Positions 1 through 50,656 of a stretch of 64,000 bases of DNA are shown here, one piece after another. A program made the translations under genes and the position numbers. The DNA comes from Candidatus Latescibacterota bacterium. Lineage in GTDB: Bacteria; Latescibacterota; UBA2968. The stretch lies in NCBI GenBank assembly GCA_965204745.1, contig OZ242010.1, positions 1,408,001-1,472,000 of the forward strand, written 5' to 3'. A model generated the notes under the pieces. It was not told the DNA's origin and searched no databases. It saw only the letters and a program-made list of their open reading frames with translations. Each line of letters opens with the position of its first letter. Position 1 is the first letter of the stretch.

Positions 1-917
1 CGCATCACCGCAACGATAGCCTGCAAAGGTTTCTTGCCGCGGGCGATGAGTTGGTCATAGAAGGCTTTGACATGGCCTTCGTGTCTGATGGCCACCCAGG
101 CAGGCATATAGAGGGCATGGCGGAGGTACTTATTCCCGGTTTTCGAGATGCGTCTTTGTGGATTGGCGGTTCCGGATTGTTTGGGTTTGGGATCCAGGCC
201 TGCATGTGCGACCCACTGGGGCGGTTGCATCTCCTCTGGCAAAAGGGTCAACTCGGCCAAGAGCCGCAAGGCACTCGTTTGCGCGATGCCAGGCGTCGAG
301 CAGAGGCGTTGGTAGGCACGCTTGAGGGGCTCATCGTGCAAAACGAGATCGAGGGCTTGGCTTTCCAAGTATGCAATCCGGCGTTTGAAGTGTCGAATAT
401 TCACCTGAATATCGCGTGCGATGAGACGTGTGCTGCGGATGTGGTAGCTCTGCGCGTGGTTGCGGCTCTGTTCGCGGATGATCTCCTGCTTGAGTTGGTC
501 AATGCGTCTGGTGAGGGCTTGCAGTTGAAGCCGTTGCTCGCTCGGCGCTTGCCAAGGCACAAAAGGCATGCGCTCGGCATAGTCGAGGATCAACAACGCA
601 TCCTTCGCATCCGTCTTCGCCCGTTGCATGCAGGCTTGGGCGTACTTGCTCATCGCTTTGGGATTGACGACCATGACCTTTGTGTGGCGATGCCGATGCA
701 AGGCCAAGGCCACCCCCAAACTGTAAAGCCCGGTCGCTTCGAGGCACACAGAGACCATGTGCCCGCCCTTCGTGAGCCACTTCAGCAACCGCTTATGCGC
801 TTGGGGATCATTGGCAAAGGTCGCTTGCATGACAGCTTGTCCGGGTCTGGACAGGGCAACGGACAACGTGCGGGCACTGACATCAATGCCGGCAAAAGCG
901 GGGTGAGATTTCGACAT
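1..917 (-). CDS. IS110 DEDD recombinase/transposase (3' end outside window)
   Basis: CAT at 915-917 next to an AGGAGG RBS on the minus strand; matches 17381-18388. Confidence 0.92.
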   Translation of the reverse strand, partial: MSKSHPAFAGIDVSARTLSVALSRPGQAVMQATFANDPQAHKRLLKWLTKGGHMVSVCLEATGLYSLGVALALHRHRHTKVMVVNPKAMSKYAQACMQRAKTDAKDALLILDYAERMPFVPWQAPSEQRLQLQALTRRIDQLKQEIIREQSRNHAQSYHIRSTRLIARDIQVNIRHFKRRIAYLESQALDLVLHDEPLKRAYQRLCSTPGIAQTSALRLLAELTLLPEEMQPPQWVAHAGLDPKPKQSGTANPQRRISKTGNKYLRHALYMPAWVAIRHEGHVKAFYDQLIARGKKPLQAIVAVM

Positions 918-984
918 GGGGGCCTCCTGTGATGAGGGGGTTGTAAGGGATCTGGTGCGCGCTCGGGGTCGCGTCCCGACCATT

Positions 985-1125
985 GACGCCAAGTCTACCG
1001 GTCTTGTATATGCAGCCTCAAGGGGCTTAGATACTCTTCGGCATAGACCCGGCGGTCGGGGGGCCTATCTTACCTACAAGGTCATCGCCTTCAAGAGGGG
1101 CCGGCCTTCCCCGAGCCGGGCATCA
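985..1125 (-). ncRNA. IS110 bridge RNA, copy 1 (approximate bounds)
   Basis: Same sequence as the non-coding left end of copy 2, which has target and donor guide loops. Confidence 0.75.
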
Positions 1126-1186
1126 AGATGGCTTATCTCGATACGAGGGCGCAACTCCTAATTAACCCTTACTTCCAAGATACAAG

Positions 1187-1235
1187 AGGGGAGAGGCAAG
1201 AGGCAAGAGGCAAGAGGGGAGAAGTGAGATGGGAG
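1187..1235. repeat. Purine-rich heptamer tract (AGGCAAG/GAGAGGG-like), the IS110 target family
   Basis: gagaggc-aagaggc-aagaggc-aagaggg; similar tracts at 30765-30790 and 48379-48440. Confidence 0.75.
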
Positions 1236-1240
1236 TTTAT

Positions 1241-1636
1241 TAGGTTCTGTTGACATTTAGGAGCAAAGCAACTGGCTTGAGCGGTTTATCGAGAAAATCA
1301 CGCTCTATCGCAGAATAGGCTCTCGGTTTGAGAAACTGGAATAGTCGCTCCTTATCGGGACCTACCCCCCTAACCCCCCTTCCTGCGAGGAAGGGGGAAC
1401 TGTGAGCGGTTTTGCGAGGGTATTGATGAGGGATTTTTAATCGCTTTATGCCCTCACGCAACACCATCAGAGCAACTAGAGCGAGAAGCCATTAAAGGCA
1501 CTTTACTCCCCTTTCCTCGTAGGAAAGGGGCCGGGGGATAGGTCCCCTCGGTCAACGCCATCAGAAAATGAGCAAGAAGCAACACAGTTGCTACTCTGTG
1601 CGTAACGTGAAAAAATGAAATGTTAACACAACCTAG
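1241..1636 (+). mobile_element. Non-autonomous IS5-like element (MITE) with transposase relic
   Basis: Imperfect TIRs TAGGTTCTGTTGACATTT / AAATGTTAACACAACCTA; relic peptide LERFIEKITLYRRIGSRFEKLE; second copy inverted at 50127-50624. Confidence 0.65.
1357..1550. repeat. REP-like palindromes (CCCCCTTCCT-N-AGGAAGGGGG family)
   Basis: Hairpin family also at 2935-3000, 24558-25005 and 36175-36372. Confidence 0.75.
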
Positions 1637-2876: not shown

Positions 2877-3062
2877 GCGGATGAAAGGGATTATAAAGAG
2901 CGATGGCACGCTTAGAAGCCGGCTCAAAATTATTGGGACCTACCCCCCGTTATTCGCATCGCTCATCGTAGGATAACGCCTGTGCCTACGAGGTAGGGGC
3001 ATCGTTCGTTTTAAGACAGTTTCTGAGACACTTGTCCAAATGTCCAAAAAAAAGGAGAACAA

Positions 3063-4286: not shown

Positions 4287-4289
4287 GAC

Positions 4290-6008: not shown

Positions 6009-6019
6009 AGACGACGAGT

Positions 6020-7678: not shown

Positions 7679-7799
7679 AAAGCAATGACCGACAACACAG
7701 CGTAGCGAGTAAGAGACGGATCGGGATACAACGGACCGTTTTTTAACCTGAGACGCCTGGACGAGTAGGGGCAACAATTGGTGAATCAAAGAGGAAGCA

Positions 7800-9026: not shown

Positions 9027-9036
9027 GATACAAGAC

Positions 9037-10734: not shown

Positions 10735-10765
10735 GGGCAACAATTGGTGAATCAAAGAGGAAGCG

Positions 10766-12031
10766 ATGGGTAAGAAACAAAAAAAGTCCGGAAAACGTTC
10801 CCGCCGGGCACAGTCCTCAAATCGCAAAGGTCTCCGTTTAAGGCGAGACTATCGAAAGGCCCTGCTCGCTGTTGGCATTCTCTTGGCGATCATGGTCCGC
10901 TACCCACTGTTGCCTTTTAAGTCGTATGATTATATAGTCGCCCTGCGTCCGTGGTACGAGTTCATCGCCTCTAATGGCAACTTTGCCGCGCTGAAGTACG
11001 ATTTTTCCCACTACAATGTCCCGTATCTCTATCTCTTGGCGACGGTTGCGTATTTTTTTTTCGATCTCCACTCACTTCTCGCCATCAAGATCACCTCCAT
11101 AATTTTCGATTTTGTCCTCGCCTTTTTCGTCTATCGATGCGTGCGTCTCAAATACCGCCAACCGAACGAGGACGCCATACCGATTCTGGCCGCGCTGGTC
11201 GCGCTGTCGATGCCCACGGTGGTCATCAATAGCGCGCTGTGGGGACAAGCGGACGCGATATATACCGCCTTCTTGGTCGCATGTCTGTATTACTTGCTCG
11301 CCGGACGCCAAGCCGCGGCGTTCATCGCCTTTGGGGTGGCGTTCAGTTTCAAGGCACAATCCTTTTTTTTTGCTCCGTTTTTACTGTGGTTGTCGGTAAA
11401 AAAGAAAGTGAATTGGCGTTGTGTTTTGTCCCCAATGGTATACTTGATCTCCATCCTGCCCGCATGGTTCATCGGTAGACCCCTATACGATTTGCTCATG
11501 ATCTATCCCAATCAAATGGCTCATTACGAATATAAGAGACGCCTCAGTCTGAATGCACCCAATTTGTATCAATGGATTCCCAACGCCTATTACGACTTCT
11601 ATCCGGTCGGCATGGCGTTCACCGCGATAGTCGCCTTGGGCATCGCCTATTTCGTCTTTAAGAGCCGGGTGGAGATCACCGCGGATCGCCTCGTTTTCCT
11701 GGCGACCTTCTCTGTCCTGATCATGCCCTACCTTTTGCCCAAGATGCACGACCGGTACTTCTTCCCGGCTGACGTCATTGCCATCATTTTGGCTTTCTAC
11801 TGCCCGCGCTATTGGTATGTGCCGGTGGTCATCGGCTCCGTGTCGGCCCTTGCGTACATGCCCTATCTGTTCTACATATTCATTCTCCCGCAGTGGCTAC
11901 CGGCTGTGCTGTTGCTCCTCATCGCGGTTTTGGGGCGGCAATTTCTGCTGATGTTTCGGACAAACACCCACTGCGCGGACAGGCACGGGGGCATGGCCCC
12001 TACGACTGATGGAGGTAGGCGGAATGGCTGA
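10766..12031 (+). CDS. GT-C glycosyltransferase, family A copy 3
   Basis: Paralog of family A; 3' end runs into a GTAG-REP. Confidence 0.8.
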   Translation: MGKKQKKSGKRSRRAQSSNRKGLRLRRDYRKALLAVGILLAIMVRYPLLPFKSYDYIVALRPWYEFIASNGNFAALKYDFSHYNVPYLYLLATVAYFFFDLHSLLAIKITSIIFDFVLAFFVYRCVRLKYRQPNEDAIPILAALVALSMPTVVINSALWGQADAIYTAFLVACLYYLLAGRQAAAFIAFGVAFSFKAQSFFFAPFLLWLSVKKKVNWRCVLSPMVYLISILPAWFIGRPLYDLLMIYPNQMAHYEYKRRLSLNAPNLYQWIPNAYYDFYPVGMAFTAIVALGIAYFVFKSRVEITADRLVFLATFSVLIMPYLLPKMHDRYFFPADVIAIILAFYCPRYWYVPVVIGSVSALAYMPYLFYIFILPQWLPAVLLLLIAVLGRQFLLMFRTNTHCADRHGGMAPTTDGGRRNG

Positions 12032-13670
12032 GTATGGTGGTCCCACTGCGGAGGCGGTGACGAGAAGCCGCTCTGTTCAGAGTTGGCTGAAGCGTCTATT
12101 CCTGCCCGGCGATACCCACACCGAGAACGCGATTTTCCTCGGCCTGATACTCATTGGCACTGCGGTTCGCCTGACCTTGCTAGGCGACATCCCCGCGGGG
12201 TTACACCAAGACGAGGCCAGCACGGGCTACAACGCCTACGCGGTATTGGAATACGGCATCAGTCGGCACGGCTATCGCAACCCGGTTCATTTTATTGCTT
12301 GGGGAAGCGGACAGGACGCCCTATACGCGTATTTCTCGATGCCGTTCATCAAGGCTATGGGCTTGAACATCGTGTCCATCCGTCTCGCGCAGGCCCTGTT
12401 GGGCGTCGTCTCTCTGTTCGTAATGTACGCCATTGGTCGGCGTCTCGCAGATGGGCGATTCGCCCTGTTCGCTCTGTTTGTGCTGACCATCTCGCCATGG
12501 CATGTCATGATGAGCCGGTGGGGTTTGGAATGTAACTTGTTGCCGGCGATGTTACTGCTGAGCTTCGCCTTGTTGCTTCGGGGATTAGAGCACCCACGCT
12601 ACATAATCCCCTCGTTCTTCCTATTGTCGCTTTCTCTATACGCTTATGCCACGGCTTACTTCTTTGTGCCGTTGTTTACACTCGGGGTTCTCCTTATGGC
12701 GGTTAAGTGCCGTCTGGTGGACTTCAGGTACTATGGGATCGGTTTGGTCGTGATGGTTGTAACCGCGATTCCCATTGGTTTGGTCGTGGCGATCAATTTG
12801 TTCGACGCTCCGACCATAGAAACGCCGCTGTTTTCCATGCCGCGCTACACCGGCGGGGCGAGGTATCCCGGGCAAGCGGGGTTCAAGACGTATGTTTTCG
12901 AAGATATTTGGCGCAATGCCAAAGAACTTTTTTTTCTTTTTGTAGTACGGGGTCATGGCAGGTATGTTTACAATGCCCTGCCCGAGTTCGGATATTTCTA
13001 CCGCTGGGGCGGCTTTCTCGTCTCTCTGGTCGGTGCCTGTTTTCTGGTACGCGATACTGCAAAGGATCGCCGCCCCGAGAACCTGCTCGTGCTCCTGTGG
13101 CTGGTGGTCGCGCTCCTGACCTCAATGGCTGTGTATCCGAACATCAATCGATCTAACTGCATATTTCTTTCGCTACTCTTGTGCGCCGCCTACGGATTGT
13201 ACACCGCGCTTGGCGACGGGTACGGGTCAATGGCGAAAATCTTGGGCGTCATCGCGCTGGCGTATCTGACAATTTCATTTGCGGGCTTCACCAAGGCGTA
13301 CTTCGGCGACTACCGCTATCAAAAGATACCCTTTTTCGCTCCTTCTTATGGCGAGGCATTTGCACACATCGCACGCCATGCCGACGAGCGCGAAACCATC
13401 TACCTGACGGACCAAGAACGCCATACATTCGCGTTGTTCTATGCCCGCCCGGATCCCCGCGTGTATATGGAGACAGCGGATATTCCGAATCGAACAGCGC
13501 TATTTCAATTCCCCAAATCCTTTGACCGATACGTATTCGGCATTGACGCAGAGGCGCGGAAGAAGGGCGACGTATTCCTCATCGCCAACCGGAAATTGCA
13601 ATTTTTTTCCCCATCCGACTTCATCATCGTCAGGTTTCACCATTATAGCGCGGCGTACCGCCGTCGATAA
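12024..13670 (+). CDS. GT-C glycosyltransferase (ArnT/PMT-like), family D copy 1
   Basis: PAGLHQDEAS and SPWH..SR motifs; GGAGG RBS before ATG at 12024. Confidence 0.8.
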   Translation: MAEYGGPTAEAVTRSRSVQSWLKRLFLPGDTHTENAIFLGLILIGTAVRLTLLGDIPAGLHQDEASTGYNAYAVLEYGISRHGYRNPVHFIAWGSGQDALYAYFSMPFIKAMGLNIVSIRLAQALLGVVSLFVMYAIGRRLADGRFALFALFVLTISPWHVMMSRWGLECNLLPAMLLLSFALLLRGLEHPRYIIPSFFLLSLSLYAYATAYFFVPLFTLGVLLMAVKCRLVDFRYYGIGLVVMVVTAIPIGLVVAINLFDAPTIETPLFSMPRYTGGARYPGQAGFKTYVFEDIWRNAKELFFLFVVRGHGRYVYNALPEFGYFYRWGGFLVSLVGACFLVRDTAKDRRPENLLVLLWLVVALLTSMAVYPNINRSNCIFLSLLLCAAYGLYTALGDGYGSMAKILGVIALAYLTISFAGFTKAYFGDYRYQKIPFFAPSYGEAFAHIARHADERETIYLTDQERHTFALFYARPDPRVYMETADIPNRTALFQFPKSFDRYVFGIDAEARKKGDVFLIANRKLQFFSPSDFIIVRFHHYSAAYRRR

Positions 13671-13674
13671 TACA

Positions 13675-14007
13675 TGGACAGGCACAGGGGCCTGTTCCTA
13701 CGACTGATAGGGGAAACCCCTGACCCCTTGAGAAGGATAGCGCGACCACCTTCTCCCCTCTTGCCTCTCCCGTCTCCCCTCTCACCGAAGGGGGGTTGGG
13801 CGGGGCGGACTGACCACTGCCCCCTTAAGAAGGATAGCGCGGTTGCCTTCTCCTCTTGTATCTTTGGGCGAGCACAGGGGCATCGCCCCTACACATATCG
13901 CTCACCTTTGAACTGGCTGTCGCTCAGTTGTACCCCGCTCGTGCCTTTTGTGGCCTCCCCTCTTGCCTCTCCCGTCTCCCCTCTCACCAAAGGGGGGTTG
14001 GGCGGGG
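13675..14007. repeat. Composite REP/heptamer cluster
   Basis: GGGCGAGCACAGGGGCATCGCCCCTAC REP plus CCCCTCT/CCCGTCT heptamers; near-copy at 18408-18690. Confidence 0.75.
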
Positions 14008-14072
14008 TGGAATTGGAGCAGTTAGATGCCGGGCAAAGCGGCGCGGTTATCATGAGACGCTTGGACGAGTAG
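14001..14072 (+). pseudogene. 3' relic of a deleted family B glycosyltransferase
   Basis: GGVELEQ + LDAGQSGAVIMRRLDE* match two separate segments of the B2 C-terminus. Confidence 0.7.
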
Positions 14073-14103
14073 GGGCAACAATTGGTGAATCAAAGAGGAA
14101 GCG

Positions 14104-15321
14104 ATGGGTAAGAAGCAAAAAAAGTCCGGAAAACGTTCCCGCCGGGCACAACCCTCAAATCGCAAGGGTATCCGTTCAAGGCGAGACTATCGAAAGGCCC
14201 TGCTCGCTGTTGGCGTTCTCTTGGCGATCATGGTCCGCTACCCCCTGTTGCCTGTTGAGACGCATGATTATCAAGTCCACTTGAAGCCGTGGTACGACTT
14301 TATCGTTCAGCACGATCACTTTGCCGCGCTGAAGTACGATTTTGCCAACTACAATGTCCCGTATCTCTATCTCTTGGCGACGGTTGCGTATTTTTTTTCC
14401 GATCTCCACTCACTTCTCGCCATCAAGATCACCTCCATAATTTTCGATTTTGTCCTCGCCTTTTTCGTCTATCGATGCGTGCGTCTCAAATACCGCCAAC
14501 CGAACGAGGGGGCCATACCGATTCTAGCCGCGCTGACCGTGTTGTTGGCCCCCACGGTGGTTCTCAATAGCGCGCTGTGGGGACAAGCGGACGCGATACA
14601 TACCGCCTTCTTGGTCGCATGTCTGTATTACTTGCTCGCCGGACGCCAAGCCGCGGCGTTCATCGCCTTTGGGATGGCGTTCACCTTCAAATTGCAATCT
14701 GTTTTTTTTGGCCCGTTTTTACTGTGGTTGTTGGTGAAAAAGGAAGTGAATTGGCGTTATGTTTGGTTGAGTCCCGCGGTGTACGTGGTCTCCAGCTTGC
14801 CCGCTTGGTTTATCGGCAGACCCTTCGCGGATCTGCTCATGATCTACTTCGGTCAAGCAGACGTATTTCGGGATCTCTGTAGAAACGCGCCCAATTTGTA
14901 TCAATGGATTCCCAACGCCTATTACGATTTCTATCCGGTCGGTATGGCGTTCACCGCGATGGTCGCCTTGGGCATCGCCTATTTTGTCTCTAAGAGCCGG
15001 GTGAAGATCACCGCGGATCACCTCGTTTTCCTGGCGACCTTCTCTGTCCTGATCATGCCCTATTTTTTGCCCAAGATGCACGACAGGTACTTCTTCCCGG
15101 CTGACATCATCGCCATCATTTTGGCTTTCTACTGCCCGCGTTACTGGTATGTGCCGGTGGTCATAAGCTCCGTGTCGGTCCTTGCGTACATGCCCTATCT
15201 GTTCAACATATTCATTCTCCCGCAGTGGCAACCGGCTGTGCTGTTGCTCCTCATCGCGGTTTTGGGGCGGCAATTCCTGCTGATGTTTTCGGACGAACAT
15301 CGACTTGGACGCAGGGGGTGA
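14104..15321 (+). CDS. GT-C glycosyltransferase, family A copy 4
   Basis: Paralog of family A. Confidence 0.8.
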   Translation: MGKKQKKSGKRSRRAQPSNRKGIRSRRDYRKALLAVGVLLAIMVRYPLLPVETHDYQVHLKPWYDFIVQHDHFAALKYDFANYNVPYLYLLATVAYFFSDLHSLLAIKITSIIFDFVLAFFVYRCVRLKYRQPNEGAIPILAALTVLLAPTVVLNSALWGQADAIHTAFLVACLYYLLAGRQAAAFIAFGMAFTFKLQSVFFGPFLLWLLVKKEVNWRYVWLSPAVYVVSSLPAWFIGRPFADLLMIYFGQADVFRDLCRNAPNLYQWIPNAYYDFYPVGMAFTAMVALGIAYFVSKSRVKITADHLVFLATFSVLIMPYFLPKMHDRYFFPADIIAIILAFYCPRYWYVPVVISSVSVLAYMPYLFNIFILPQWQPAVLLLLIAVLGRQFLLMFSDEHRLGRRG

Positions 15322-15326
15322 CTGGC

Positions 15327-17023
15327 ATGACAAAAAAACAAAAAAATCGGCGGACGAGGAACCGTCAGGGGCGTGCCAACACCGCCAAACCGCAGACCCC
15401 GGTGCAGGTAGCGGCGAGCGATCACCCTGTTAAGCGTTGGCTGAAGCGGTTGTTCCTGCCCGGGGATAATGCTGTTGAGAACGCGATCTTCCTCGCTCTG
15501 ATACTGGTCGGTGCCGCAGTTCGCCTGATTTTGCTCGGCGACATTCCCGCAGGGTTGAACCAAGACGAGGCCGCTCTGGGCTACGACGCCTGGGCCTTGT
15601 TGGAATACGGCATTGACCGGCACGGTTATCACAACCCGGTGCATTTTGTGTCTTGGGGAAGCGGGCAGAACGCCCTGTACGGCTATTTCTCGATGCCGTT
15701 CATCAAGGCGATGGGCTTGAACATCGTGTCCATCCGTCTCGCGCAGGCCCTGTTGGGCGTCGTCTCCTTGTTCGCAATGTACGCCATTGGTCGGCGTCTC
15801 GCAGATGGGCGATTCGCCCTGTTCGCCTTGTTTGTGTTGACCATCTCGCCGTGGCACGTCATGATGAGCCGATGGGGGTTGGAGTCCAACTTATTGCCGC
15901 CATTGTTGCTGTTCAGTTTCTCCTTTTTGCTTCGGGGATTGATCACCTCGCGCTACATCATCCCCGCGTTCTTCCTGCTGTCCCTTTCCCTGTACGCGTA
16001 TGGCACGGCTTACTTCTTTGTGCCGATCTTTACACTCGGGGTTCTCGTCTATGGGATGAAGCACCGCCAGATCGACGTCCGGCACTGGGGAGGCGGCTTG
16101 GTCGTGATGATCGTGACCGCGATTCCCATTGGCTTGTTCTTGGCGGTCAATTTGTTCGAATGGGAGGCCATAGAAACGCCGCTGTTCTCCATGCCGCGCT
16201 ACACTGGCGTGCCGAGGTATGCCACAACTGCCGCGTTCTTCAGTGCGGATTTTTTTTTCAAATTTGGCAGAACGGCCTGCACTTAGGGCCACTGATAGCG
16301 ACTGGACACGGCGAACCTATTTACAATGCCCTGCCCGAGTTCGGATATTTCTACCGCTGGGGCGGTTTTCTCGTCTCTGTGGTCGGCACGGGCTTTCTCG
16401 TGCGCGATGGCGTGCGGGGGCGCCGCCCCGAAAACCTGCTCGTGCTCCTGTGGCTGGTGGTCGCGCTTTTGACGTCAATAACGGTGAAGCCGAACATCAA
16501 TCGGATCAACGTCATATTCTTTCCGCTACTTCTGTGCACTGCGTACGGGCTGTACACCGCGCTTGGCGAGCAGTACAGGTCCATAGTGAAAATCGCGGGT
16601 GTCGTCGCGCTGGCGTATCTGATCTTTTCATTTGCGGCTTTCACCAAGACGTACTTCAGCGACTACCGCTGGCAACAAGTGCAATATTTCGCTCCTTCTT
16701 ATGGCGAGGCATTTGCACACATCGCACGCCATGCCAACGAGCGCGAAACCATCTATCTGACGGGCTACCAACTCCATACATTTGCGTTGTTCTACGCCCG
16801 CCCGGATCCCCGCGTGTATATGGAGACAGCGGATATTCCGAATCCAACAGCGGAATTTCAATACGTCAAATCCTTTGACCGATACGTATTCGGCATTGAC
16901 GCAGAGGCGCGGAAGAAGGGCAACGTATTCCTCATCGACAACCGGGAATTGCAATTTTTTTCCCCATCCGACTTCATCATCGTCAGGTTTCACCATTATA
17001 GCGCGGCGTACCGCCGTCGATAA
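15327..17023 (+). pseudogene. GT-C glycosyltransferase, family D copy 2, frameshifted at a T9 tract
   Basis: Homology to D1 switches frame at 16250-16258. Confidence 0.75.
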
Positions 17024-17174
17024 TACATGGACAGGCCCCTGTGCCTGTCCCTACGACTGATAGGGGAAACCACTGACCCTTGAGAAGGATAGCGCGGTTG
17101 CCTTCTCCCCTCTTGTATCTTGGAAGTAAGGGTTAATTAGGAGTTGCGCCCTCGTATCGAGATAAGCCATCTTG

Positions 17175-17312
17175 ATGCCCGGCTCGGGGAAGGCCGGCCC
17201 CTCTTGAAGGCGATGACCTTGTAGGTAAGATAGGCCCCCCGACCGCCGGGTCTATGCCGAAGAGTATCTAAGCCCCTTGAGGCTGCATATACAAGACCGG
17301 TAGACTTGGCGT
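17175..17312 (+). ncRNA. IS110 bridge RNA with target-binding and donor-binding loops (approximate bounds)
   Basis: Guides CCCCTCTT (17198) and AGGTAAG (17223) match the target; AGAGTATCT (17261) and ATACAAG (17289) match the donor junction; each pair flanks a stem. Confidence 0.8.
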
Positions 17313-17380
17313 CAATGGTCGGGACGCGACCCCGAGCGCGCACCAGATCCCTTACAACCCCCTCATCACAGGAGGCCCCC

Positions 17381-18388
17381 ATGTCGAAATCTCACCCCGC
17401 TTTTGCCGGCATTGATGTCAGTGCCCGCACGTTGTCCGTTGCCCTGTCCAGACCCGGACAAGCTGTCATGCAAGCGACCTTTGCCAATGATCCCCAAGCG
17501 CATAAGCGGTTGCTGAAGTGGCTCACGAAGGGCGGGCACATGGTCTCTGTGTGCCTCGAAGCGACCGGGCTTTACAGTTTGGGGGTGGCCTTGGCCTTGC
17601 ATCGGCATCGCCACACAAAGGTCATGGTCGTCAATCCCAAAGCGATGAGCAAGTACGCCCAAGCCTGCATGCAACGGGCGAAGACGGATGCGAAGGATGC
17701 GTTGTTGATCCTCGACTATGCCGAGCGCATGCCTTTTGTGCCTTGGCAAGCGCCGAGCGAGCAACGGCTTCAACTGCAAGCCCTCACCAGACGCATTGAC
17801 CAACTCAAGCAGGAGATCATCCGCGAACAGAGCCGCAACCACGCGCAGAGCTACCACATCCGCAGCACACGTCTCATCGCACGCGATATTCAGGTGAATA
17901 TTCGACACTTCAAACGCCGGATTGCATACTTGGAAAGCCAAGCCCTCGATCTCGTTTTGCACGATGAGCCCCTCAAGCGTGCCTACCAACGCCTCTGCTC
18001 GACGCCTGGCATCGCGCAAACGAGTGCCTTGCGGCTCTTGGCCGAGTTGACCCTTTTGCCAGAGGAGATGCAACCGCCCCAGTGGGTCGCACATGCAGGC
18101 CTGGATCCCAAACCCAAACAATCCGGAACCGCCAATCCACAAAGACGCATCTCGAAAACCGGGAATAAGTACCTCCGCCATGCCCTCTATATGCCTGCCT
18201 GGGTGGCCATCAGACACGAAGGCCATGTCAAAGCCTTCTATGACCAACTCATCGCCCGCGGCAAGAAACCTTTGCAGGCTATCGTTGCGGTGATGCGAAA
18301 GTTGCTCCATTCGATCTGGGGCATGTTGCGCCATGACCAAGATTTTGAGGGCGAAAAATTCTATCGAATCACCCCGAAAACCCCTTGA
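17381..18388 (+). CDS. IS110 DEDD recombinase/transposase
   Basis: GIDVS, CLEATG, KTDAKDA, QSG and ISKTGNKYLR motifs; AGGAGG RBS. Confidence 0.95.
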   Translation: MSKSHPAFAGIDVSARTLSVALSRPGQAVMQATFANDPQAHKRLLKWLTKGGHMVSVCLEATGLYSLGVALALHRHRHTKVMVVNPKAMSKYAQACMQRAKTDAKDALLILDYAERMPFVPWQAPSEQRLQLQALTRRIDQLKQEIIREQSRNHAQSYHIRSTRLIARDIQVNIRHFKRRIAYLESQALDLVLHDEPLKRAYQRLCSTPGIAQTSALRLLAELTLLPEEMQPPQWVAHAGLDPKPKQSGTANPQRRISKTGNKYLRHALYMPAWVAIRHEGHVKAFYDQLIARGKKPLQAIVAVMRKLLHSIWGMLRHDQDFEGEKFYRITPKTP

Positions 18389-18407
18389 CCTTTTAAGAGA
18401 GTATCTT

Positions 18408-21700: not shown

Positions 21701-23358
21701 GCATAGGCGACGCCGAGCGCGTCTCGGTGCTTTCCCTGCGCTGGCCGAGTGGCATCGTGCAGCAAAGGGATACGGATGAGTTATCGGTCAATCGCATCAT
21801 CGCCATCACCGAGCAGGCGCCGCGCCCGGCAGCGCGGGTGCGCTTAACCGCAGACGCGACCCACTTATTGAGCAATGGGGTCTCGGAAGCCGAACTCACG
21901 GCGCGAATCGTCACCCGCGAGAACACGCCCGTCGTCGCCAGCGGGCGCGCCGTGCGATTCCTCATTGAAACCGGGAGCGGCCTGATCATCCCGTCGCGGA
22001 CCTCAGAGCAAGTGGGCGAAGATGAGATAGCGGTGAGCGATGGGGTCGCGACCTCGCGTTATCGCGCAGGCCAAGACCCGGGCCGCGTGGTCATCATCGC
22101 GGAAAGCCAAGGGCTCGCGCCCGGCCGCGTCGAAATCGAACTCGTCCAACCCTTCGCAGAAGACGCCCTGACCATCCGCACTATCGCGGGTTCGGGGGAT
22201 GAGACCGGCGGATTTGCCGGCGATAGCAGCGCGGCAACAGACGCGCTCCTCCAAAATCCGCAGGGCATCACAACGGATTCCCGCGGCAATATTTACATCG
22301 CGGACGCGGGCAACAATCGCGTTCGCCAAGTCGAAACGGGCATCATCCAAACCCTCGCGGCAACCGCAGAGGGGGAACTCGCCACGCCGTCCGCCTTGGT
22401 CTTCAAGGGCAACGCGCTGATCATCAGCGAACCCCAAGCCCATGTGGTGCGGCAGGTACGCAATGGCGCGCTGGCCTCGTTTGCAGGCACGGGCATCGGG
22501 CAATTTGGCGGGGACGGGGGCCGCGCATCCAACGCCAACCTCAGACGCCCCACCGGTCTCGCTATCGATCAAACTGGCAATGTGTATATCGCGGATACGG
22601 ACAACCACCGCGTTCGCAAAGTCGATCCCACGGGCATCATCACCACCTTTGCCGGCAGTGGCAATCCAGATGAGGGGGCTTATGCCGGCGACAACGGCGC
22701 AGCCACACGCGCCCGCCTCAACCGGCCCCATGCCCTTGCCATTGACGCACAGAACAATGTGTATATCGCGGATACGGACAACCACCGCGTTCGCAAGGTC
22801 GATCCCACGGGCATCATCACCACCCTTGCGGGAACCAGCACCCCCGGATTTTCCGGAGATGGGAACCTGGGCACGCGCGCCCAACTCAACCGGCCACAGG
22901 GCATTGCCGTCGATGATCGCGGGCATCTTTTCATCGCGGATACGGACAACCACCGCATTCGCCTGCTCGACCTGACCACCGGCCTGATCCAAAGCATCGG
23001 CGGCACCGGTTCCGGACGCCTCGATCTCGAAACCGGCGGCGGCCTCGCGGTGAGCCTCAACACCCCTCGCGGCTTGGGGATCAGCCCCACAGGCACCCTG
23101 CTCATCGCAGACGCGGGCAATCACCGCATCCGCGAACTCTCCATTGCATTCCCCTCGGCGATCACAATGCCCACGAGCAATAAAAAGCCCCTCGACTTCA
23201 ACGCCGATGGCCGCGTAGATCTCCGCGACTTCCGCCTGTTCACCGCTGCCTTCGCCACCACCGACCCACACTTCGACCTCACCGCCGACGGCCACGTAGC
23301 CTTCGCCGACTTCCTGCGCTTTGCCAAAATTTACGAGGAAGTAGTCAGTAGTCAGTAG
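18718..23358 (+). CDS. Large secreted protein: NHL repeats, two ASH/Ig-like domains, FG-GAP repeats with ASPIC/UnbV, Ig-like domain, NHL repeats, C-terminal EF-hand/dockerin-like domain
   Basis: Signal peptide; YIADTxNHRIR repeats; WGDFDNDGDLDL repeats; DFNADGRVDLRDF at the C-terminus. Confidence 0.85.
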   Translation: MRYIHTIYIVLILATCVFAQASIVTIAGGGLEDGDNVRATDVMLNQPRGIALDARGNLYIADTDHHRIRRVDAATGIITTVAGTGEPGFSGDSGPATRAMLNAPQGIAVDSAGNIYLSSGGANDAQNRRVRRVDPAGIITTVAGTGEGGFNDGVPALEATFYDIVALAMLGDAALLISDAGDQTGQGNNRVRQLNLTRNTVGTVAGNGNARASNIQDGGLAHRAGLTPGQLAIADDGDLLIADVANGRVRRVSRAMQDTTVVVVITTVAGREASPEEMLYKGDGGAATSALFSNPSGVAIDQRGNIYIADTGNHRIRIVEAETGVVLPLAGTGTEGVGAEGALGLLSDLQGPAHMMIDGDGDLLFIDNDRIRKLRDPGFRMPLFNAPAEDIDFGTVSIGDPAVRGLAVENRGNLPVRIDTVVSDNAGFRILSALPFDLGVAQLAEIELAFDPIREGRAQGIVTLTTDDPRTPSATVRVQGTAESAAIGLFPPDVLVFDPTAIGQAQSSSVRISNLGAGVLVVSHAATTDSQFVVAQTDTLRIASGQSQSLRIAFHPTAENAQRATLTIFSNAPATPAATLRLQGLGQRARADGFVDEAANAGLGDLGAGFGAAWADYDRDGDLDLSVVRSNEPNRLYRNDGDRFTDVAPTLGIADPGDGSAGIWGDVDRDGDLDLYVTNFGEPNRLFRNDGDRFTDVAPALGIADPGDGYGAAWADYDRDGDLDLYVANFGANRFYQNDGDGFVERADSLGLADAESGIQPAWGDFDNDGDPDLFLANSGPNRLFRNDGDRFTAIENSFSPTDAGPSFGAAWGDFDNDGDLDLFIPYFGAPNRLYVNDGGRFTDRAPALGLDHDGRGRGAAWGDFDNDGFLDLYVTNREQPNLYYKNRDGQEFIELADTLGLALDANSRGLALADYDSDGKLDLYVAVQNGADALYRNREAAGNWLGIRLRGTQSSADAIGTRVEIVYGDDRRAIREISGGASFLSQDAPIARFGIGDAERVSVLSLRWPSGIVQQRDTDELSVNRIIAITEQAPRPAARVRLTADATHLLSNGVSEAELTARIVTRENTPVVASGRAVRFLIETGSGLIIPSRTSEQVGEDEIAVSDGVATSRYRAGQDPGRVVIIAESQGLAPGRVEIELVQPFAEDALTIRTIAGSGDETGGFAGDSSAATDALLQNPQGITTDSRGNIYIADAGNNRVRQVETGIIQTLAATAEGELATPSALVFKGNALIISEPQAHVVRQVRNGALASFAGTGIGQFGGDGGRASNANLRRPTGLAIDQTGNVYIADTDNHRVRKVDPTGIITTFAGSGNPDEGAYAGDNGAATRARLNRPHALAIDAQNNVYIADTDNHRVRKVDPTGIITTLAGTSTPGFSGDGNLGTRAQLNRPQGIAVDDRGHLFIADTDNHRIRLLDLTTGLIQSIGGTGSGRLDLETGGGLAVSLNTPRGLGISPTGTLLIADAGNHRIRELSIAFPSAITMPTSNKKPLDFNADGRVDLRDFRLFTAAFATTDPHFDLTADGHVAFADFLRFAKIYEEVVSSQ

Positions 23359-23483
23359 TCAGTAGTCAGTAGTCAGTAGTCAGTAGTCAGTAGTCAGTAG
23401 TCAGTAGTCAGTAGTCAGTAGTCAGTAGTCAGTAGTCAGTAGTCAGTAGTCAGTAGTCAGTAGTCAGTAGTCAGTAGTCAGTA
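23341..23483. repeat. Perfect heptamer tandem repeat (GTAGTCA) x ~20
   Basis: Read directly; supplies the stop codon of the upstream gene and resumes after the IS at 24468. Confidence 0.95.
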
Positions 23484-24467
23484 ATGCGAATTAAGAGTTG
23501 AATCCATCGCGTACTTGTCTTTTCTTGAGGGCTCAGTCATTTCACCCTTAAAGGAAGGAGCACGCGATGGATTGGCAAGATAAACTCATTCACTTGTATG
23601 TCTATATTTGTCAGCAGTATGACCAAAAGCATCTGTGGTTTTATACACAACGCATGAGCAATAACGATACGCCGACCTTCACAGATGAAGAAGTGCTGAC
23701 GATCTATTTGTTTGGGATCATGCAACAGCACACGCAGATCAAGGCGATTTATACCTATACCAAGGATCATCTTTCCGACTGGTTTCCCCATCTGCCCACT
23801 TATGCAGGCTATATCCAGCGGTTGAACCGCTTGTGTGTGGTCTTCGCGCCATTGATTGAACAAATCCAAAAGGACAGTCCCGCAACCGATCTCTCTGAAC
23901 ACACCTACTTGGTGGATTCCATGCCGATTGTCATGGCACAATCGGCACGCAGCGGTCAGGCGTGTGTGGCCGAAGAACAACTGGCCAACAAAGGCCGCTG
24001 CGCTTCCAAAAAGATGTGGTATTACGGCACCAAACTGCACATTGTCGCACAAGACCGTGAGAACGGCCTCCCGAAAGCAGAGTACATCGGCTTGACAGGT
24101 GCAGCAGAGCATGACCTGACCGCTTTGCGACAAGTCTTACCCGTTTTGCGTGATGGACACCTCTACGGCGATAAAATCTACGCCGATCAGCCCTTAAAAG
24201 ACACGCTTAGCAAACAGCAGAACCTGATCTTCGAGACGCCGGTGAAGCGCAAGAAGGGACAAGAAAGCCTGACCGAAGCCGAAAAAGACTATTCTCGGGC
24301 GGTTTCGAGCATACGACAGCCGATTGAGGCCTTGTTCAGTTGGATTGAACGAAAGACGAACATCTCGATGGCGTCTCGGGTACGATCCTATGAGGGCTTA
24401 CTCGTTCATGTCTTTGGGCGATTGACCGCGGCTTGCTTCTTACTCGCTTTCTACTCTTAATTCGCAT
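23484..24467 (+). mobile_element. IS982-family element
   Basis: TIRs ATGCGAATTAAGAGT / ACTCTTAATTCGCAT; CAGTA on both flanks. Confidence 0.88.
23567..24460 (+). CDS. IS982-family DDE transposase
   Basis: VDSMP, YYGTKLH, YGDKIY and RQPIEALF motifs. Confidence 0.9.
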   Translation: MDWQDKLIHLYVYICQQYDQKHLWFYTQRMSNNDTPTFTDEEVLTIYLFGIMQQHTQIKAIYTYTKDHLSDWFPHLPTYAGYIQRLNRLCVVFAPLIEQIQKDSPATDLSEHTYLVDSMPIVMAQSARSGQACVAEEQLANKGRCASKKMWYYGTKLHIVAQDRENGLPKAEYIGLTGAAEHDLTALRQVLPVLRDGHLYGDKIYADQPLKDTLSKQQNLIFETPVKRKKGQESLTEAEKDYSRAVSSIRQPIEALFSWIERKTNISMASRVRSYEGLLVHVFGRLTAACFLLAFYS

Positions 24468-24557
24468 CAGTAGTCAGTCCCCGCTCCGCCCTACCGCCAC
24501 TCGTCCATTCCAGCGCACGCGCAACGTCAGTAATCCAGTAACTTTCCGGCGGCGGGG

Positions 24558-25005
24558 CGAGGGGACCTATCCCCCGGCCCCGTTATTCGCTTCGCTCATT
24601 GTAGGCTACGCCTGTGCCTACGAGGAAAGGGGAGTAAAGTTCCTTGATGGCTTCTAAGCTCTGGTTGCTCTGATGGCGTTTTGCGAGGGGACCTATCCCC
24701 CGGCCCCGTTATTCGCTTCGCTCATTGTAGGCTACGCCTGTGCCTACGAGGAAAGGGGAGTAAAGCACCTTTGATGGCTTCTCGCTCTGGTTTCTCTGAT
24801 GGCGTTGCGCGAGGGGACCTATCCCCCGGCCCCTTTCCTACAAGGAAAGGGGAGTAAAGTGCCTTTGATGGCTTATATCTCTAGTTGCTCTGATGGCGTT
24901 GCGCGAGGGCATAAAGCGATTAAATATCCCTCACACCATCCCCCCGCAAAACCCATCCGCGTTCCCCCCTTCCTTGCAGGAAGGGGGGTTAGGGGGGTAG
25001 GTCCC
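24558..25005. repeat. Tandem cluster of REP-like palindromes (about 3-4 units)
   Basis: GAGGGGACCTATCCCCCGGCCCC...GGAAAGGGGAGTAAAG repeated three times, then a CCCCCCTTCC..GGAAGGGGGG hairpin. Confidence 0.8.
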
Positions 25006-25015
25006 GCCATTCCCC

Positions 25016-25885
25016 CTTGTATCTTGGAAGTAAGGGTTAATTAGGAGTTGCGCCCTCGTATCGAGACGAGACATCTTGATGCCCGGCTCGGGGAAGGCCG
25101 GCCCCCCTTGAAGGCGATGACCTTGTCAGGAAGAGAGGCCCCCCGACCGCCGAGTCTATGCCGAAGCGTATCTAAGTCCATTGAGGCTGCATAGACAAGA
25201 CCGGTAGACTTGGCGTGAAAAGGTCGGGACTCGAGCGCACATCAGACCCCCTTAGACCCCTCATCACAGGAGGCCCCCATGTCGAACTCTCAACCCGCTT
25301 TTGCCGGCATTGATGTCAGTGCCCGCAACTTGTCCGTTGCCCTGTCCCTGCCTGGACAAGGTGTCATGCAAACGACCTTTGACAATGATTCCCGGGCGCA
25401 CAAGCGGTTGCTGAAGTGGCTCACCAAGGGCGGGCACATGGTCTCTGTCTGCCTCGAAATGACCGGATTTTATAGCCTGGAGGTGGCCTTGGCCTTGCAT
25501 CGGCATCGCCGCACGCAGGTCATGGTCATCAATCCCAAGGCGATGAGCAAGTACGCCCAAGCGTGCATGCAAGGGACAAAGACGGATGCGAAGGATGCGT
25601 TGTTGATCCTCGATTATGCCGAGCACATGCCCTTTGTGCCTTGGCAACCGCCGAGCGAGCACCTGCTCCAACTGCAAGCCCTGACCACACGGATTAACCA
25701 ACTCAAGCAGGAGATCAGCCGCGAACAGAGCCACAGCCACGCGCAGGGCTACCACACCCGGAGCACACGTCTCATCGCACGCGATATTCAGGTGAATATT
25801 CGATACCTCAAACGCCGGATTGCATACTTGGAAGGCCAAGCCCTCGATCTCGTTTTGCAGGACGAGACCCAAAAGCGTAGCCTAC
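25016..25885 (+). mobile_element. IS110 element copy 3, diverged and 3'-truncated
   Basis: Same left end GTATCTTGGAAGTAAGGG; homology to copy 2 stops near 25885. Confidence 0.88.
25079..25216 (+). ncRNA. IS110 bridge RNA variant with altered target guides
   Basis: Guides CCCCCCTT (25102) and CAGGAAG (25127) within a conserved scaffold. Confidence 0.75.
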
Positions 25886-25899
25886 AACGAAGCGAGTAA
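25279..25899 (+). pseudogene. Truncated IS110 transposase (lacks the catalytic-Ser Tnp domain)
   Basis: DEDD domain present; ORF ends at 206 aa inside a REP sequence. Confidence 0.85.
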
Positions 25900-25999
25900 C
25901 GGGGGTTAGGGTCCCGATAATGTAGCGTTCCTTTGATGGCTTATAGCTATGGCTACTCTAATGGCGTTGCGCGAGGGCATAAAGCGATTAAATATCCCT

Positions 26000-36079: not shown

Positions 36080-36372
36080 TCTCTTTGGGCGAGCACGGGG
36101 GCATCGCCCCTACGGGTCTCAGGTCTCGATTTTGGGGGATGGCAGGGTGGCCCTCTTCCGTCTTCCTCGCAAGCCCTATCCCCCCGGCCCCCTTTCCTAC
36201 AAGGAAAGGGGGAGCGCATGGCTTTTTGAAGGTTTGTATCCCTAGCTGTTTTGATGGCTTTGAGCGAATGGATCACGCCATGAACCCCAAAAACCTCTCG
36301 CGCAAATCCCTCACAAACCCTCTCGCCATTCCCCCCTTCCTCACAGGAAGGGGGGTTAGGGGGGTAGGTCCC
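36080..36372. repeat. Composite REP cluster
   Basis: GTAG-REP plus CCCCTTTCC..GGAAAGGGG hairpins; related units at 38145-38206 and 40450-40560. Confidence 0.7.
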
Positions 36373-50624: not shown

Positions 50625-50656
50625 TCCCGACGACTTGCAACGTCGGGACATAACCG

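What the first reader, a model, noticed from the sequence alone, without database searches (positions are those of the whole stretch)
25005..25278. Natural retargeting: sister bridge RNA has changed guides that match a different repeat family
Seen: the scaffold is nearly the same as copy 2, but the left target guide is CCCCCCTT (was CCCCTCTT) and the right guide is CAGGAAG (was AGGTAAG). Its left flank is ATTCCCCCTT, and the guides predict a target CCCCC-CTT-CCTG. That is the REP hairpin arm seen at 1375-1385, with variants near 24964 and 36331. Donor guides also differ (AGCGTATCT, AGACAAG). Inference: two sibling elements partition two host repeat families through guide changes, a covariation visible within one window. 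The right flank is lost, so the right-guide match is predicted, not observed.
Basis: partly seen in the sequence, partly recalled or inferred. Interest (0 to 1): 0.8.

Follow-up and report, generated by a model that had tools for sequence, protein, structure and literature searches.

The report
Dead IS110 copy with REP-aimed guides
This is a broken copy of an RNA-guided jumping gene whose guide RNA is tuned to a palindromic host repeat rather than the seven-base tandem repeats its many intact relatives use, a clear natural example of a principle that is already published.

Summary
Window 25019-~25889 is a 3'-truncated IS110-family element, 89.6% identical to the intact copy at 17114-18404. Its bridge-RNA scaffold is conserved, but the target loop reads CCCCCCTT / CAGGAAG instead of CCCCTCTT / AGGTAAG.

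The genome holds 52 full-length relatives. Guide and flank sequences covary across at least five guide classes here and in three related genomes.

The 45 copies with copy 2's guides sit at junctions inside CT-rich heptamer tandem arrays. The sister's lineage (3 copies with guides, 1 end fragment, all truncated) sits in REP hairpin arms.

The retargeting reading is therefore supported, with these corrections:
- The right flank is not fully lost. A deletion runs from the transposase gene into the same REP, whose right part survives at 25872-25935.
- Relic evidence gives right flank CCTC, not the predicted CCTG. That matches 6 of 7 guide positions.
- The REP-aimed lineage is extinct here, and no intact copy was found in any collection searched.
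- The donor-guide differences show no significant excess and no sign of retargeting.

Guide-target covariation and REP targeting in IS110 elements were published in 2024. This is a new member of a known kind.

The parts
25019..25889 (+). Sister element: 3'-truncated IS110-family copy. It covers the left end, the bridge-RNA region and the first ~200 codons of the recombinase. Its last ~18 bases overlap the junction with the REP remnant.
   Evidence: blastn against copy 2 gives 89.6% identity over query 3-886. Alignment.
25011..25018 (+). Left target of the sister: TCCCC + CT core + T. This is the end of a REP arm (..GCCATTCCCCCTT).
   Evidence: It matches the LTG at 7 of 8 positions.
25058..25215 (+). 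Predicted bridge RNA of the sister: 5' stem-loop, target-binding loop and donor-binding loop. Transcript ends are unknown.
   Evidence: Consensus folds and single-sequence fold.
25102..25109 (+). Left target guide CCCCCCTT (copy 2 has CCCCTCTT).
25127..25133 (+). Right target guide CAGGAAG (copy 2 has AGGTAAG). Its reverse complement is CTTCCTG.
25165..25173 (+). Left donor guide AGCGTATCT (copy 2 has AGAGTATCT).
   Evidence: The same variant occurs in intact copy E_1297030, whose right end reads AGAGTAT.
25193..25199 (+). Right donor guide AGACAAG (copy 2 has ATACAAG). This state is shared with elements of G016, G018 and G092.
25279..25899 (+). Truncated recombinase ORF (206 aa). It has the DEDD domain only; the C-terminal serine domain is missing.
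   Evidence: PF01548 only.
25872..25935 (+). Right part of the long-hairpin REP that the sister was inserted in. It is joined to the recombinase gene by a deletion at a short stretch of similarity (AAGCGT.GCCTAC).
   Evidence: Alignment with an empty REP unit and with copy 2.
24965..24987 (.). Intact short REP hairpin CCCCCTTCCT-TGC-AGGAAGGGGG, just upstream of the sister.
17114..18404 (+). Copy 2: intact IS110-family element lying between CT cores at 17112-17113 and 18405-18406. Its 335-aa recombinase ORF is at 17381-18388.
   Evidence: PF01548 + PF02371.
17198..17229 (+). Target-binding loop of copy 2: LTG CCCCTCTT at 17198-17205, an inner hairpin, and RTG AGGTAAG at 17223-17229.
   Evidence: The flanks read CCCCTCTT | CTTGCCT.
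1..1192 (-). Another main-lineage copy, cut by the start of the window (genome 1409192-1407888).
1375..1397 (.). Short REP hairpin whose + strand reads CCCCCTTCCTG. With the preceding C this is the 12-mer predicted by the sister's guides.
36332..36354 (.). REP hairpin in the same orientation as the sister's left flank (..CTCGCCATTCCCCCCTT). Here the arm continues CCTC.

Best explanation
The feature is the left two-thirds of a dead IS110-family (bridge-recombinase) insertion sequence. It belongs to a sub-lineage whose bridge-RNA target loop was tuned to the arm of a REP-type palindromic repeat.

Proposed mechanism. Base-pairing here is inferred from sequence match, and recombination was not tested.
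- The 5' side of the target loop (LTG) has the sequence of the top strand of the left target plus the CT core.
- The 3' side (RTG) is the reverse complement of the CT core plus the right target.
- The donor loop reads the element's own joined ends (AGAGTAT-CT-TGTAT) in the same way.

The main lineage has 45 copies, with LTG CCCCTCTT and RTG AGGTAAG. It inserts at CCCCT-CT-T(A/G)CCT junctions inside CT-rich heptamer tandem arrays. The sister's lineage (LTG C-run+CTT, RTG (C/T)AGGAAG) inserted at (T/C)CCCC-CT-TCCT(C) in REP arms.

This copy entered a long-hairpin REP unit. It later lost its 3' ~420 bp, together with about 17 bp of flank, by a deletion between similar short sequences in the recombinase gene and the REP.

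All members of this sub-lineage in the genome are truncated. The retargeting is therefore a fossil record, not a current division of labour.
For: Family identity:
- Copy 2's recombinase has PF01548 and PF02371. The sister has PF01548 only.
- The left end folds into a 5' stem-loop plus two modules of stem, internal loop and hairpin. The variable positions lie in the first internal loop.
- The outer stem of the donor loop shows 3 compensatory pairs.

Donor match:
- LDG AGAGTATCT equals the right end plus CT.
- The reverse complement of RDG ATACAAG is CT+TGTAT, the left end.

Target match over the 70 copies with both flanks (52 here, 7 in G016, 11 in G018):
- Main class, n=45: left flank matches 8/8 in 41 and 6/8 in 4. 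Right flank matches 7/7 in 24, 6/7 in 18, 5/7 in 1 and 4/7 in 2. Of the 18, 17 read CTTGCCT, which is a G.U wobble.
- CGCCTCTT/AAGTAAG class, n=4: 8/8 in 3 and 7/7 in 3.
- G016 and G018 classes match their own flanks likewise.
- Guide classes match their own flank sets at 13.4 of 15 positions, against 10.6 for other classes. Only 3 of 40,320 class permutations reach the observed total.
- G092 adds a sixth class, AAGCATCT / GTGTGAG, with flanks (A/C)AGCATCTT | CTCAT(A/G)C.

REP targeting by the sister's lineage:
- 4 of 4 copies have REP-arm left flanks.
- A right-end fragment is followed by CTT|CCTCGCAGGCACAGG.
- 15 REP units carry a GTATCTT scar exactly at the predicted core.
- A REP remnant lies downstream of the sister.
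- The predicted 12-mer is a 94-copy repeat. Only 8 of 17,010 equally mutated variants of copy 2's target occur 50 or more times.

The mechanism follows Durrant et al. 2024, PMC11208160 (passages read).
Against: - No intact copy with the (C/T)AGGAAG guide exists in this genome, in the 132 genomes of the class searched, or in two pattern scans each of the genome and metagenome collections. The right-guide match therefore rests on relics.
- The outermost RTG base does not match the relic right flank (guide predicts G or A, DNA has C).
- The sister's outermost LTG base does not match its own flank (C against T).
- The right-end fragment and the scars cannot be assigned to this sub-lineage by sequence. 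The fragment is 85-87% identical to all lineages.
- About 11 of the 15 scars share one long left flank, so they may be one event copied with the repeat.
- Single-sequence folds are no better than shuffles (z = -0.9 and -1.2), and the target-loop stems never vary. The structure therefore rests on analogy plus the covariation in the donor-loop stem.
- No Rfam family matches.
- Expression and recombination are untested.
Confidence: 0.85

Rival explanations
1. The guide differences are random decay of a dead pseudogene copy, and the resemblance to the REP arm is coincidence.
For: The copy is truncated and cannot transpose on its own. Its outermost guide positions mismatch its own site.
Against: - The same RTG core AGGAAG and C-rich LTG occur in two other copies that differ elsewhere.
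- Substitutions are enriched in the target guides: 4 of 15 against 7 of 129.
- Only 8 of 17,010 equally mutated targets hit a repeat of 50 or more copies.
- All four left flanks are REP arms.
Confidence: 0.04
2. The choice of REP arm is set mainly by the hairpin structure of the target, or by protein contacts, with the guides playing a secondary role. This would resemble the sequence-structure dual match proposed for ISPpu10.
For: - Targets of this sub-lineage are hairpin arms.
- Insertions or relics occur on both arms and strands despite a one-base difference next to the loop.
- A 2026 preprint reports that a target stem-loop adds specificity for ISPpu10 (abstract read).
Against: - Sibling lineages with the same protein family and scaffold insert into non-palindromic heptamer arrays.
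- Their sites track single-base guide changes.
- The guides alone predict 10 of 12 positions of the sister's inferred site.
Confidence: 0.08
3. The sister was placed in the REP by off-target or trans action of another lineage's bridge RNA, and its own loop says nothing about where it sits.
For: - One full-length copy (genome 602776) has flanks that fit a sibling's guides (7/8 and 7/7) better than its own (7/8 and 5/7). Mismatch between a copy's own guides and its site therefore does occur.
- A 2026 preprint reports half-match off-target insertion (abstract read).
Against: - The sister's own loop fits its site (7/8 left; inferred 6/7 right) far better than any other class in the genome does.
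- Three copies with this loop type are all in REP arms.
Confidence: 0.03

Closest known systems
IS621 of Escherichia coli (IS110 group) and its bridge RNA. Source: Durrant et al. 2024, PMC11208160, passages read. The structural paper PMC11208158 was seen only in the search listing.
   Same: - DEDD (PF01548) plus serine-domain (PF02371) recombinase.
- Long left end encoding an RNA with a target-binding and a donor-binding internal loop.
[quoted passage not shown]
- CT core on both sides and no target duplication.
- REP hairpins as natural targets (true here of the sister's lineage).
   Different: - No Rfam or other curated model links the RNAs.
- The left guide here appears to cover 5 bases + CT (+T) rather than 8-9.
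- The main lineage targets heptamer tandem arrays rather than REPs.
- Activity is untested.
Published survey of natural IS110 guides against target motifs (Durrant et al. 2024, text on Fig. 2 and Extended Data Fig. 5a).
   Same: Natural elements binned by LTG/RTG have target consensus motifs concordant with the guides, with zero to two mismatches. This is the same logic as the finding.
   Different: That survey spans thousands of orthologues. Here at least five guide classes of one young family sit in a single genome, with single-base guide changes matched by single-base flank changes.
ISPpu10 of Pseudomonas putida (preprint 10.64898/2026.03.19.712850; abstract read).
   Same: An IS110 element that inserts into copies of a conserved intergenic stem-loop repeat.
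   Different: A structural gate is claimed there and was not tested here. The sequence relationship was not examined.
IS1111 group / seekRNA elements. This comparison is recalled; the only source seen was a review title and abstract in the listing.
   Same: RNA-guided DEDD recombinases of the same superfamily.
   Different: As recalled, and as the Extended Data Fig. 10 legend of Durrant et al. states, the IS1111 group has short left ends and long right ends. Here the non-coding RNA region lies in a ~265-bp left end and the right end is ~16 bp past the stop codon. This element therefore belongs to the IS110 group.

Membership tests
IS110 family, IS110 group (bridge recombinase elements) | [quoted passage not shown] | tested here: met
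   Copy 2: E=1.2e-24. Sister: E=3.9e-24.
IS110 family, IS110 group (bridge recombinase elements) | C-terminal serine-containing domain (PF02371) | tested here: met
   Met in copy 2, E=4.8e-20. Not present in the sister, whose ORF stops at 206 aa with PF01548 only. The sister is therefore a defective member.
IS110 family, IS110 group (bridge recombinase elements) | Long non-coding left end upstream of the recombinase, short right end | tested here: met
   The left end is ~265 bp (17114-17380). The right end is ~16 bp after the stop codon (18389-18404).
IS110 family, IS110 group (bridge recombinase elements) | CT core on both sides of the element, with no target-site duplication beyond it | tested here: met
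   All 52 full-length copies here and the 18 examined in G016 and G018 have ..CT(T)|GTAT.. and ..GTAT|CT... G018's loop and right flank lack the third T, which points to CT rather than CTT as the core.
Bridge RNA | Two internal loops, each flanked by a stem and closed by a hairpin | tested here: inconclusive
   RNAalifold predicts exactly this layout. The outer donor-loop stem has 3 compensatory pairs, but the target-loop stems are invariant. Single-sequence z-scores are -0.9 and -1.2. No Rfam model matched.
Bridge RNA | Target-loop guides match the two flanks (left in sense, right as reverse complement, both including the core) and covary with them | tested here: met
   70 copies in 8 guide classes. 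Own flank sets match at 13.4 of 15 positions, against 10.6 for others. 3 of 40,320 permutations reach the observed total. G092 adds a further class.
Bridge RNA | Donor-loop guides match the joined right and left ends | tested here: met
   AGAGTATCT equals the right end plus CT. The reverse complement of ATACAAG is CT+TGTAT. Only 12% of donor-guide columns vary across the family.
Bridge RNA | Promoter assembled across the right-left junction of the circular form | tested here: inconclusive
   TTGACC lies 20 nt from the right end. With an 18-nt spacer it meets TATCTT in the left end. No sigma-70-like site lies upstream of the RNA in the integrated copies. No circle or transcript data are available.
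Bridge RNA | RNA binds the recombinase and directs recombination | not testable with these tools
   No RNA run was listed.
REP-type repeats (the sister's target) | Short, high-copy, imperfect palindromes | tested here: met
   - CCCCCTTCCTG: 130 copies with a shared 90-nt consensus containing CCCCCCTTCCT-GCG-AGGAAGGGGGG.
- A long-hairpin variant: 189 copies of its core 20-mer.
- Whether these repeats are extragenic was not tested.

The most novel reading that the evidence does not exclude
The dead REP-aimed copies may still matter. Their bridge-RNA scaffold and donor loop are nearly those of the 51 intact siblings. An orphan RNA from window 25058-25215 could therefore be loaded by a sibling's recombinase and send sibling circles into the several hundred REP-arm sites, acting as a latent second address kept in the genome.

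Linked to this, the 7-bp GTATCTT scars sit exactly at predicted cores in REP arms and heptamer arrays. They would mean that these recombinases sometimes resolve at a second GTAT-CT-T inside the left end. That would leave a readable fossil record of past insertions, which is contrary to scarless excision.
Probability: 0.15. Interest if true: 0.55.

Novelty: new member of a known kind. Interest (0 to 1): 0.3.

Why it matters
The case shows, in one genome and without experiments, how few base changes in a bridge-RNA loop move an IS110 element between host repeat families and between junction types within one family.
- The CGCCTCTT/AAGTAAG class differs from the main class by one LTG and one RTG base, and its flanks differ at exactly those bases.
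- This gives a natural set of matched guide-target pairs on one scaffold. That could be useful for benchmarking rules of guide length, wobble tolerance and the outermost positions.
- It also shows that a retargeted lineage can die out while its sibling expands to about 45 near-identical copies.

It does not change the understanding of the mechanism. Guide-target covariation and REP targeting are published.

Tried and rejected
Searches for an intact REP-aimed copy, all without success:
- The whole genome holds only truncated copies.
- Of 41 relatives, 31 genomes of the family and 132 of the class, only G016, G018 and G092 carry the family, each with other guides.
- Two exact patterns of the sister-type target loop gave 0 hits in genome contigs and 0 in metagenome contigs. 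The tool notes that records of the window's own genome may be left out.

Expression:
- No RNA holder was listed.
- Laying contigs of runs X1, X2, X5 and X6 gave only short pieces (longest listed 374 nt), mostly with main-lineage letters at the guide positions. No piece spans the element, so this says nothing about an intact copy.

Other checks that led nowhere:
- Rfam gave nothing at gathering thresholds and only chance-level hits at E of 1 or more.
- Assigning the right-end fragment (genome 5088577-5088855) to a lineage failed. It is 85-87% identical to all of them.
I prefer CT, because G018's loop and flanks lack the third T.
- I considered that the GTATCTT-(T/C)GGGCGAGCAC repeat is a miniature element with IS-like ends. 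I found no matching right end in the copies inspected and left the question open.
- A paper search for IS110 together with footprint or imprecise excision listed 6 papers, none with the phrase 'imprecise excision'. This is a weak negative, limited to the held library.
- Supplementary files of papers were not consulted. Supplementary Data 2 of Durrant et al. may list related elements.

Full report
WHAT IS THERE

The finding lies in the left end of an IS110-family insertion sequence.
- Its 335-aa ORF (17381-18388) carries PF01548 and PF02371.
- The sister begins with the same GTATCTTGGAAG at window 25019.
- The sister stays alignable to copy 2 up to about 25889, at 89.6% identity over positions 3-886 of the 1305-nt query.
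- Its ORF (25279-25899) has only the DEDD domain, so it is a truncated, non-autonomous copy.

THE OBSERVATION

- Left target guide: CCCCCCTT against CCCCTCTT.
- Right target guide: CAGGAAG against AGGTAAG.
- Donor guides: AGCGTATCT and AGACAAG against AGAGTATCT and ATACAAG.
- Left flank: ..GCCATTCCCCCTT.
- REP hairpins at 1375-1397, 24965-24987 and 36332-36354.

Differences between the two copies are enriched in the target guides. They hit 4 of 15 guide positions against 7 of 129 other positions of the predicted RNA (p=0.017). The donor guides differ at 2 of 16 positions, which is not significant.

THE FAMILY

The genome (5.48 Mb, one contig) holds 52 full-length copies, 51 of them with a 335-aa ORF, plus fragments. 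RNAalifold on 15 variants, and on 7 variants including a distant one, gives this layout:
- a 5' stem-loop;
- a stem enclosing an internal loop whose 5' side is the variable left guide and whose 3' side is the variable right guide, closed by a hairpin;
- a second module of the same design holding the donor guides.

Only the outer stem of the second module shows compensatory changes (3 pairs). The target-loop stems never vary, and single-sequence folds do not beat shuffles. The structure therefore rests partly on analogy with the published IS621 bridge RNA. Rfam has no matching family.

DOES IT BEHAVE LIKE A BRIDGE RNA?

Yes, as far as sequence can show.
- The donor guides equal the element's own ends. 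AGAGTATCT is the right end plus CT, and the reverse complement of ATACAAG is CT+TGTAT.
- The target guides equal the flanks.

Of the 45 copies with copy 2's guides:
- the left flank matches 8/8 in 41 and 6/8 in 4;
- the right flank matches 7/7 in 24, 6/7 in 18, 5/7 in 1 and 4/7 in 2;
- of the 18 at 6/7, 17 read CTTGCCT, a G.U wobble.

Other guide classes match other flanks:
- CGCCTCTT/AAGTAAG with CGCCTCTT|CTTACTT: 4 copies, 3 with a perfect left flank and 3 with a perfect right flank.
- TCCCTCTC/AGGTGAG with TCCCTCTT|CTCACCT.
- G016: TCC(T/C)CCTT/AGAAAAG with ..CCTT|CTTTTCT.
- G018: CGCCTCT/AGGGAG with CGCCTCTT|CTCCC...
- G092: AAGCATCT/GTGTGAG with (A/C)AGCATCTT|CTCAT(A/G)C.

Own-class matches average 13.4 of 15, against 10.6 for other classes. 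Only 3 of 40,320 permutations of classes over flank sets reach the observed total. The classes are related, so this is descriptive rather than a strict probability. G018's loop and flanks point to a CT core, as in IS621, rather than CTT.

WHAT THE TWO LINEAGES TARGET

The main lineage's flanks are runs of CT-rich heptamers (CCTCTTG, CCTCTTA, CCTCTCC and similar).
- The genome has 1,119 period-7 tandem arrays by TRF, many of this type.
- The core CT is the end of one unit, and the guides read that unit and the next.
- The heptamer-targeting classes therefore differ in which junction of unit variants they recognise.

The sister's class is different. The 12-mer its guides predict occurs 94 times, against a mononucleotide expectation of 1.3. 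It is the arm of a REP-type hairpin..GGGACCTACCCCCCTAAC-CCCCCCTTCCT-GCG-AGGAAGGGGGG-AACTGTGAGCGGTTTTGC... Only 8 of 17,010 four-substitution variants of copy 2's target occur 50 or more times, so landing on such a repeat is not chance.

First, the orientation.
- The left flanks of all four copies of this class (window copy; genome 921766, 1263481, 2089472) read GCAAAACC..CTC.C..TTCCCCCTT. That is the other strand of the REP.
- On that strand the arm continues CCTC.
- Genome-wide, TCCCCCTT is followed by CCTC 122 times and by CCTG 3 times.
- The hairpin at 36332 in the window shows the same continuation.

Second, direct relics.
- A fragment holding only a right end (genome 5088577-5088855) is followed by CTT|CCTCGCAGGCACAGGCGTAGCC, a long-hairpin REP variant.
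- Fifteen units of that variant carry GTATCTT inserted exactly between ..CCCCTT and CCT(C/T)G... About 11 of them share one long left flank and may be one event.
- One scar (genome 2420789) and one left-end fragment (genome 1264391) lie on the CCTG strand, so both arms were used.

Third, the sister's right flank is not wholly lost.
- Window 25872-25935 aligns with the right part of a long-hairpin REP unit.
- The junction lies where the recombinase gene (..CAAGCGTGCCTACCAACG..) resembles the REP (..CAGGCGTAGCCTACAACG..).
- This implies a deletion that removed the 3' ~420 bp of the element and about 17 bp of flank.

The inferred site is TCCCC-CT-TCCTC. It matches the sister's guides at 10 of 12 positions, and both misses are at the outermost positions.

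Fourth, the class is extinct here. Every copy is truncated. No intact one was found in any collection searched.

Fifth, the donor guides.
- AGACAAG is the state in intact, multi-copy elements of G016, G018 and G092, which have the same GTAT left end.
- AGCGTATCT also occurs in an intact copy whose right end reads AGAGTAT.
- A diverged right-end fragment (genome 5323345) does read AGCGTAT, so a matching lost end cannot be excluded.

COMPARISON WITH WHAT IS KNOWN

Durrant et al. 2024 (PMC11208160; passages read) describe the following:
- the conserved CT core;
- REP elements as natural targets;
- natural IS110s binned by LTG/RTG, whose target motifs agree with the guides within zero to two mismatches.

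The finding is a within-genome instance of that result. Later work seen only as abstracts bears on the open questions, not on the verdict. It covers half-match excision and off-target insertion, a target stem-loop as an extra determinant, copy-out pathways and weak bridge-RNA expression from integrated loci.

VERDICT

This is a new member of a known kind, of modest interest as a clean natural series of guide-target pairs. Two side observations may deserve their own look: the scars and a repeat family that shares the element's terminal heptamer.

Noticed in passing
Genome-wide; e.g. G000:C1:1079910, 3668577, 415942, 2420789 (none in the window): Seven-base GTATCTT insertions sit exactly at predicted cores. 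GTATCTT is the element's first 7 nt, and also its last 4 nt plus CTT. There are 15 in long-hairpin REP units, 1 in a short REP arm and a few in heptamer arrays. They look like scars of element loss between the two terminal GTATCTT copies, which is at odds with scarless excision.
   Followed up: partly
window 18504-~18640 and 13858-; 71 copies genome-wide: A repeat family begins GTATCTT(T/C)GGGCGAGCAC(A/G)GGGGCATCGCCCC.. and nearly always follows ..CTT, in both heptamer-type and REP-type left contexts. It shares the IS terminus, but I found no IS-like right end. Its origin is unexplained.
   Followed up: partly
G000:C1:602776-604074 (L040): This full-length copy's guides (TGCCTCTT/AAGTAAG) fit its flanks (TCCCTCTT|CTCACCT) worse than the guides of sibling 1297030 do. 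Possible causes are a chimeric left end, later gene conversion, or insertion guided in trans.
   Followed up: no
G000:C1:1263481-1264391 (L037): One REP appears to have been hit in both arms by oppositely oriented copies. A truncated forward copy abuts an inverted 45-nt left-end fragment whose flank is the other arm.
   Followed up: partly
G000:C1:1122885-1124187: Two full-length elements lie in tandem, separated only by CTTACCTCTT. The second therefore inserted into the heptamer unit next to the first.
   Followed up: no
window 50643-64000: A very long CRISPR-like array of about 180 copies of a 37-nt repeat (GTTTCAATCCGCTCCCCTCACGGATGTAAGGGGAGAT) with ~35-nt spacers. It runs to the window's end.
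   Followed up: no
window 23340-23480; genome-wide: (AGTAGTC)n heptamer array. The genome has 1,119 period-7 tandem arrays by TRF, in two main families..CTGAC.. types and CT-rich types.
   Followed up: partly
window 24540-24900: About three tandem ~120-nt units made of a long-hairpin REP variant (..GGGGACCTATCCCCCGGCCCC..GTAGGCTACGCCTGTGCCTACGAGGAAAGGGGAG..) plus a CCTTTGATGGCTT..CTGATGGCGTTGCGCGAGGG module. The same module recurs at 25925-25975 after the truncated element.
   Followed up: no
window 23567-24460 and ~37373-: DDE transposase ORF (PF01609) of another IS family, with a 93% identical partial copy 13.9 kb downstream.
   Followed up: no
window 3000-16700: Four copies of a multi-kilobase direct repeat, spaced 3.0-4.8 kb apart and 62-94% identical. 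This suggests a tandem family of paralogous genes.
   Followed up: no
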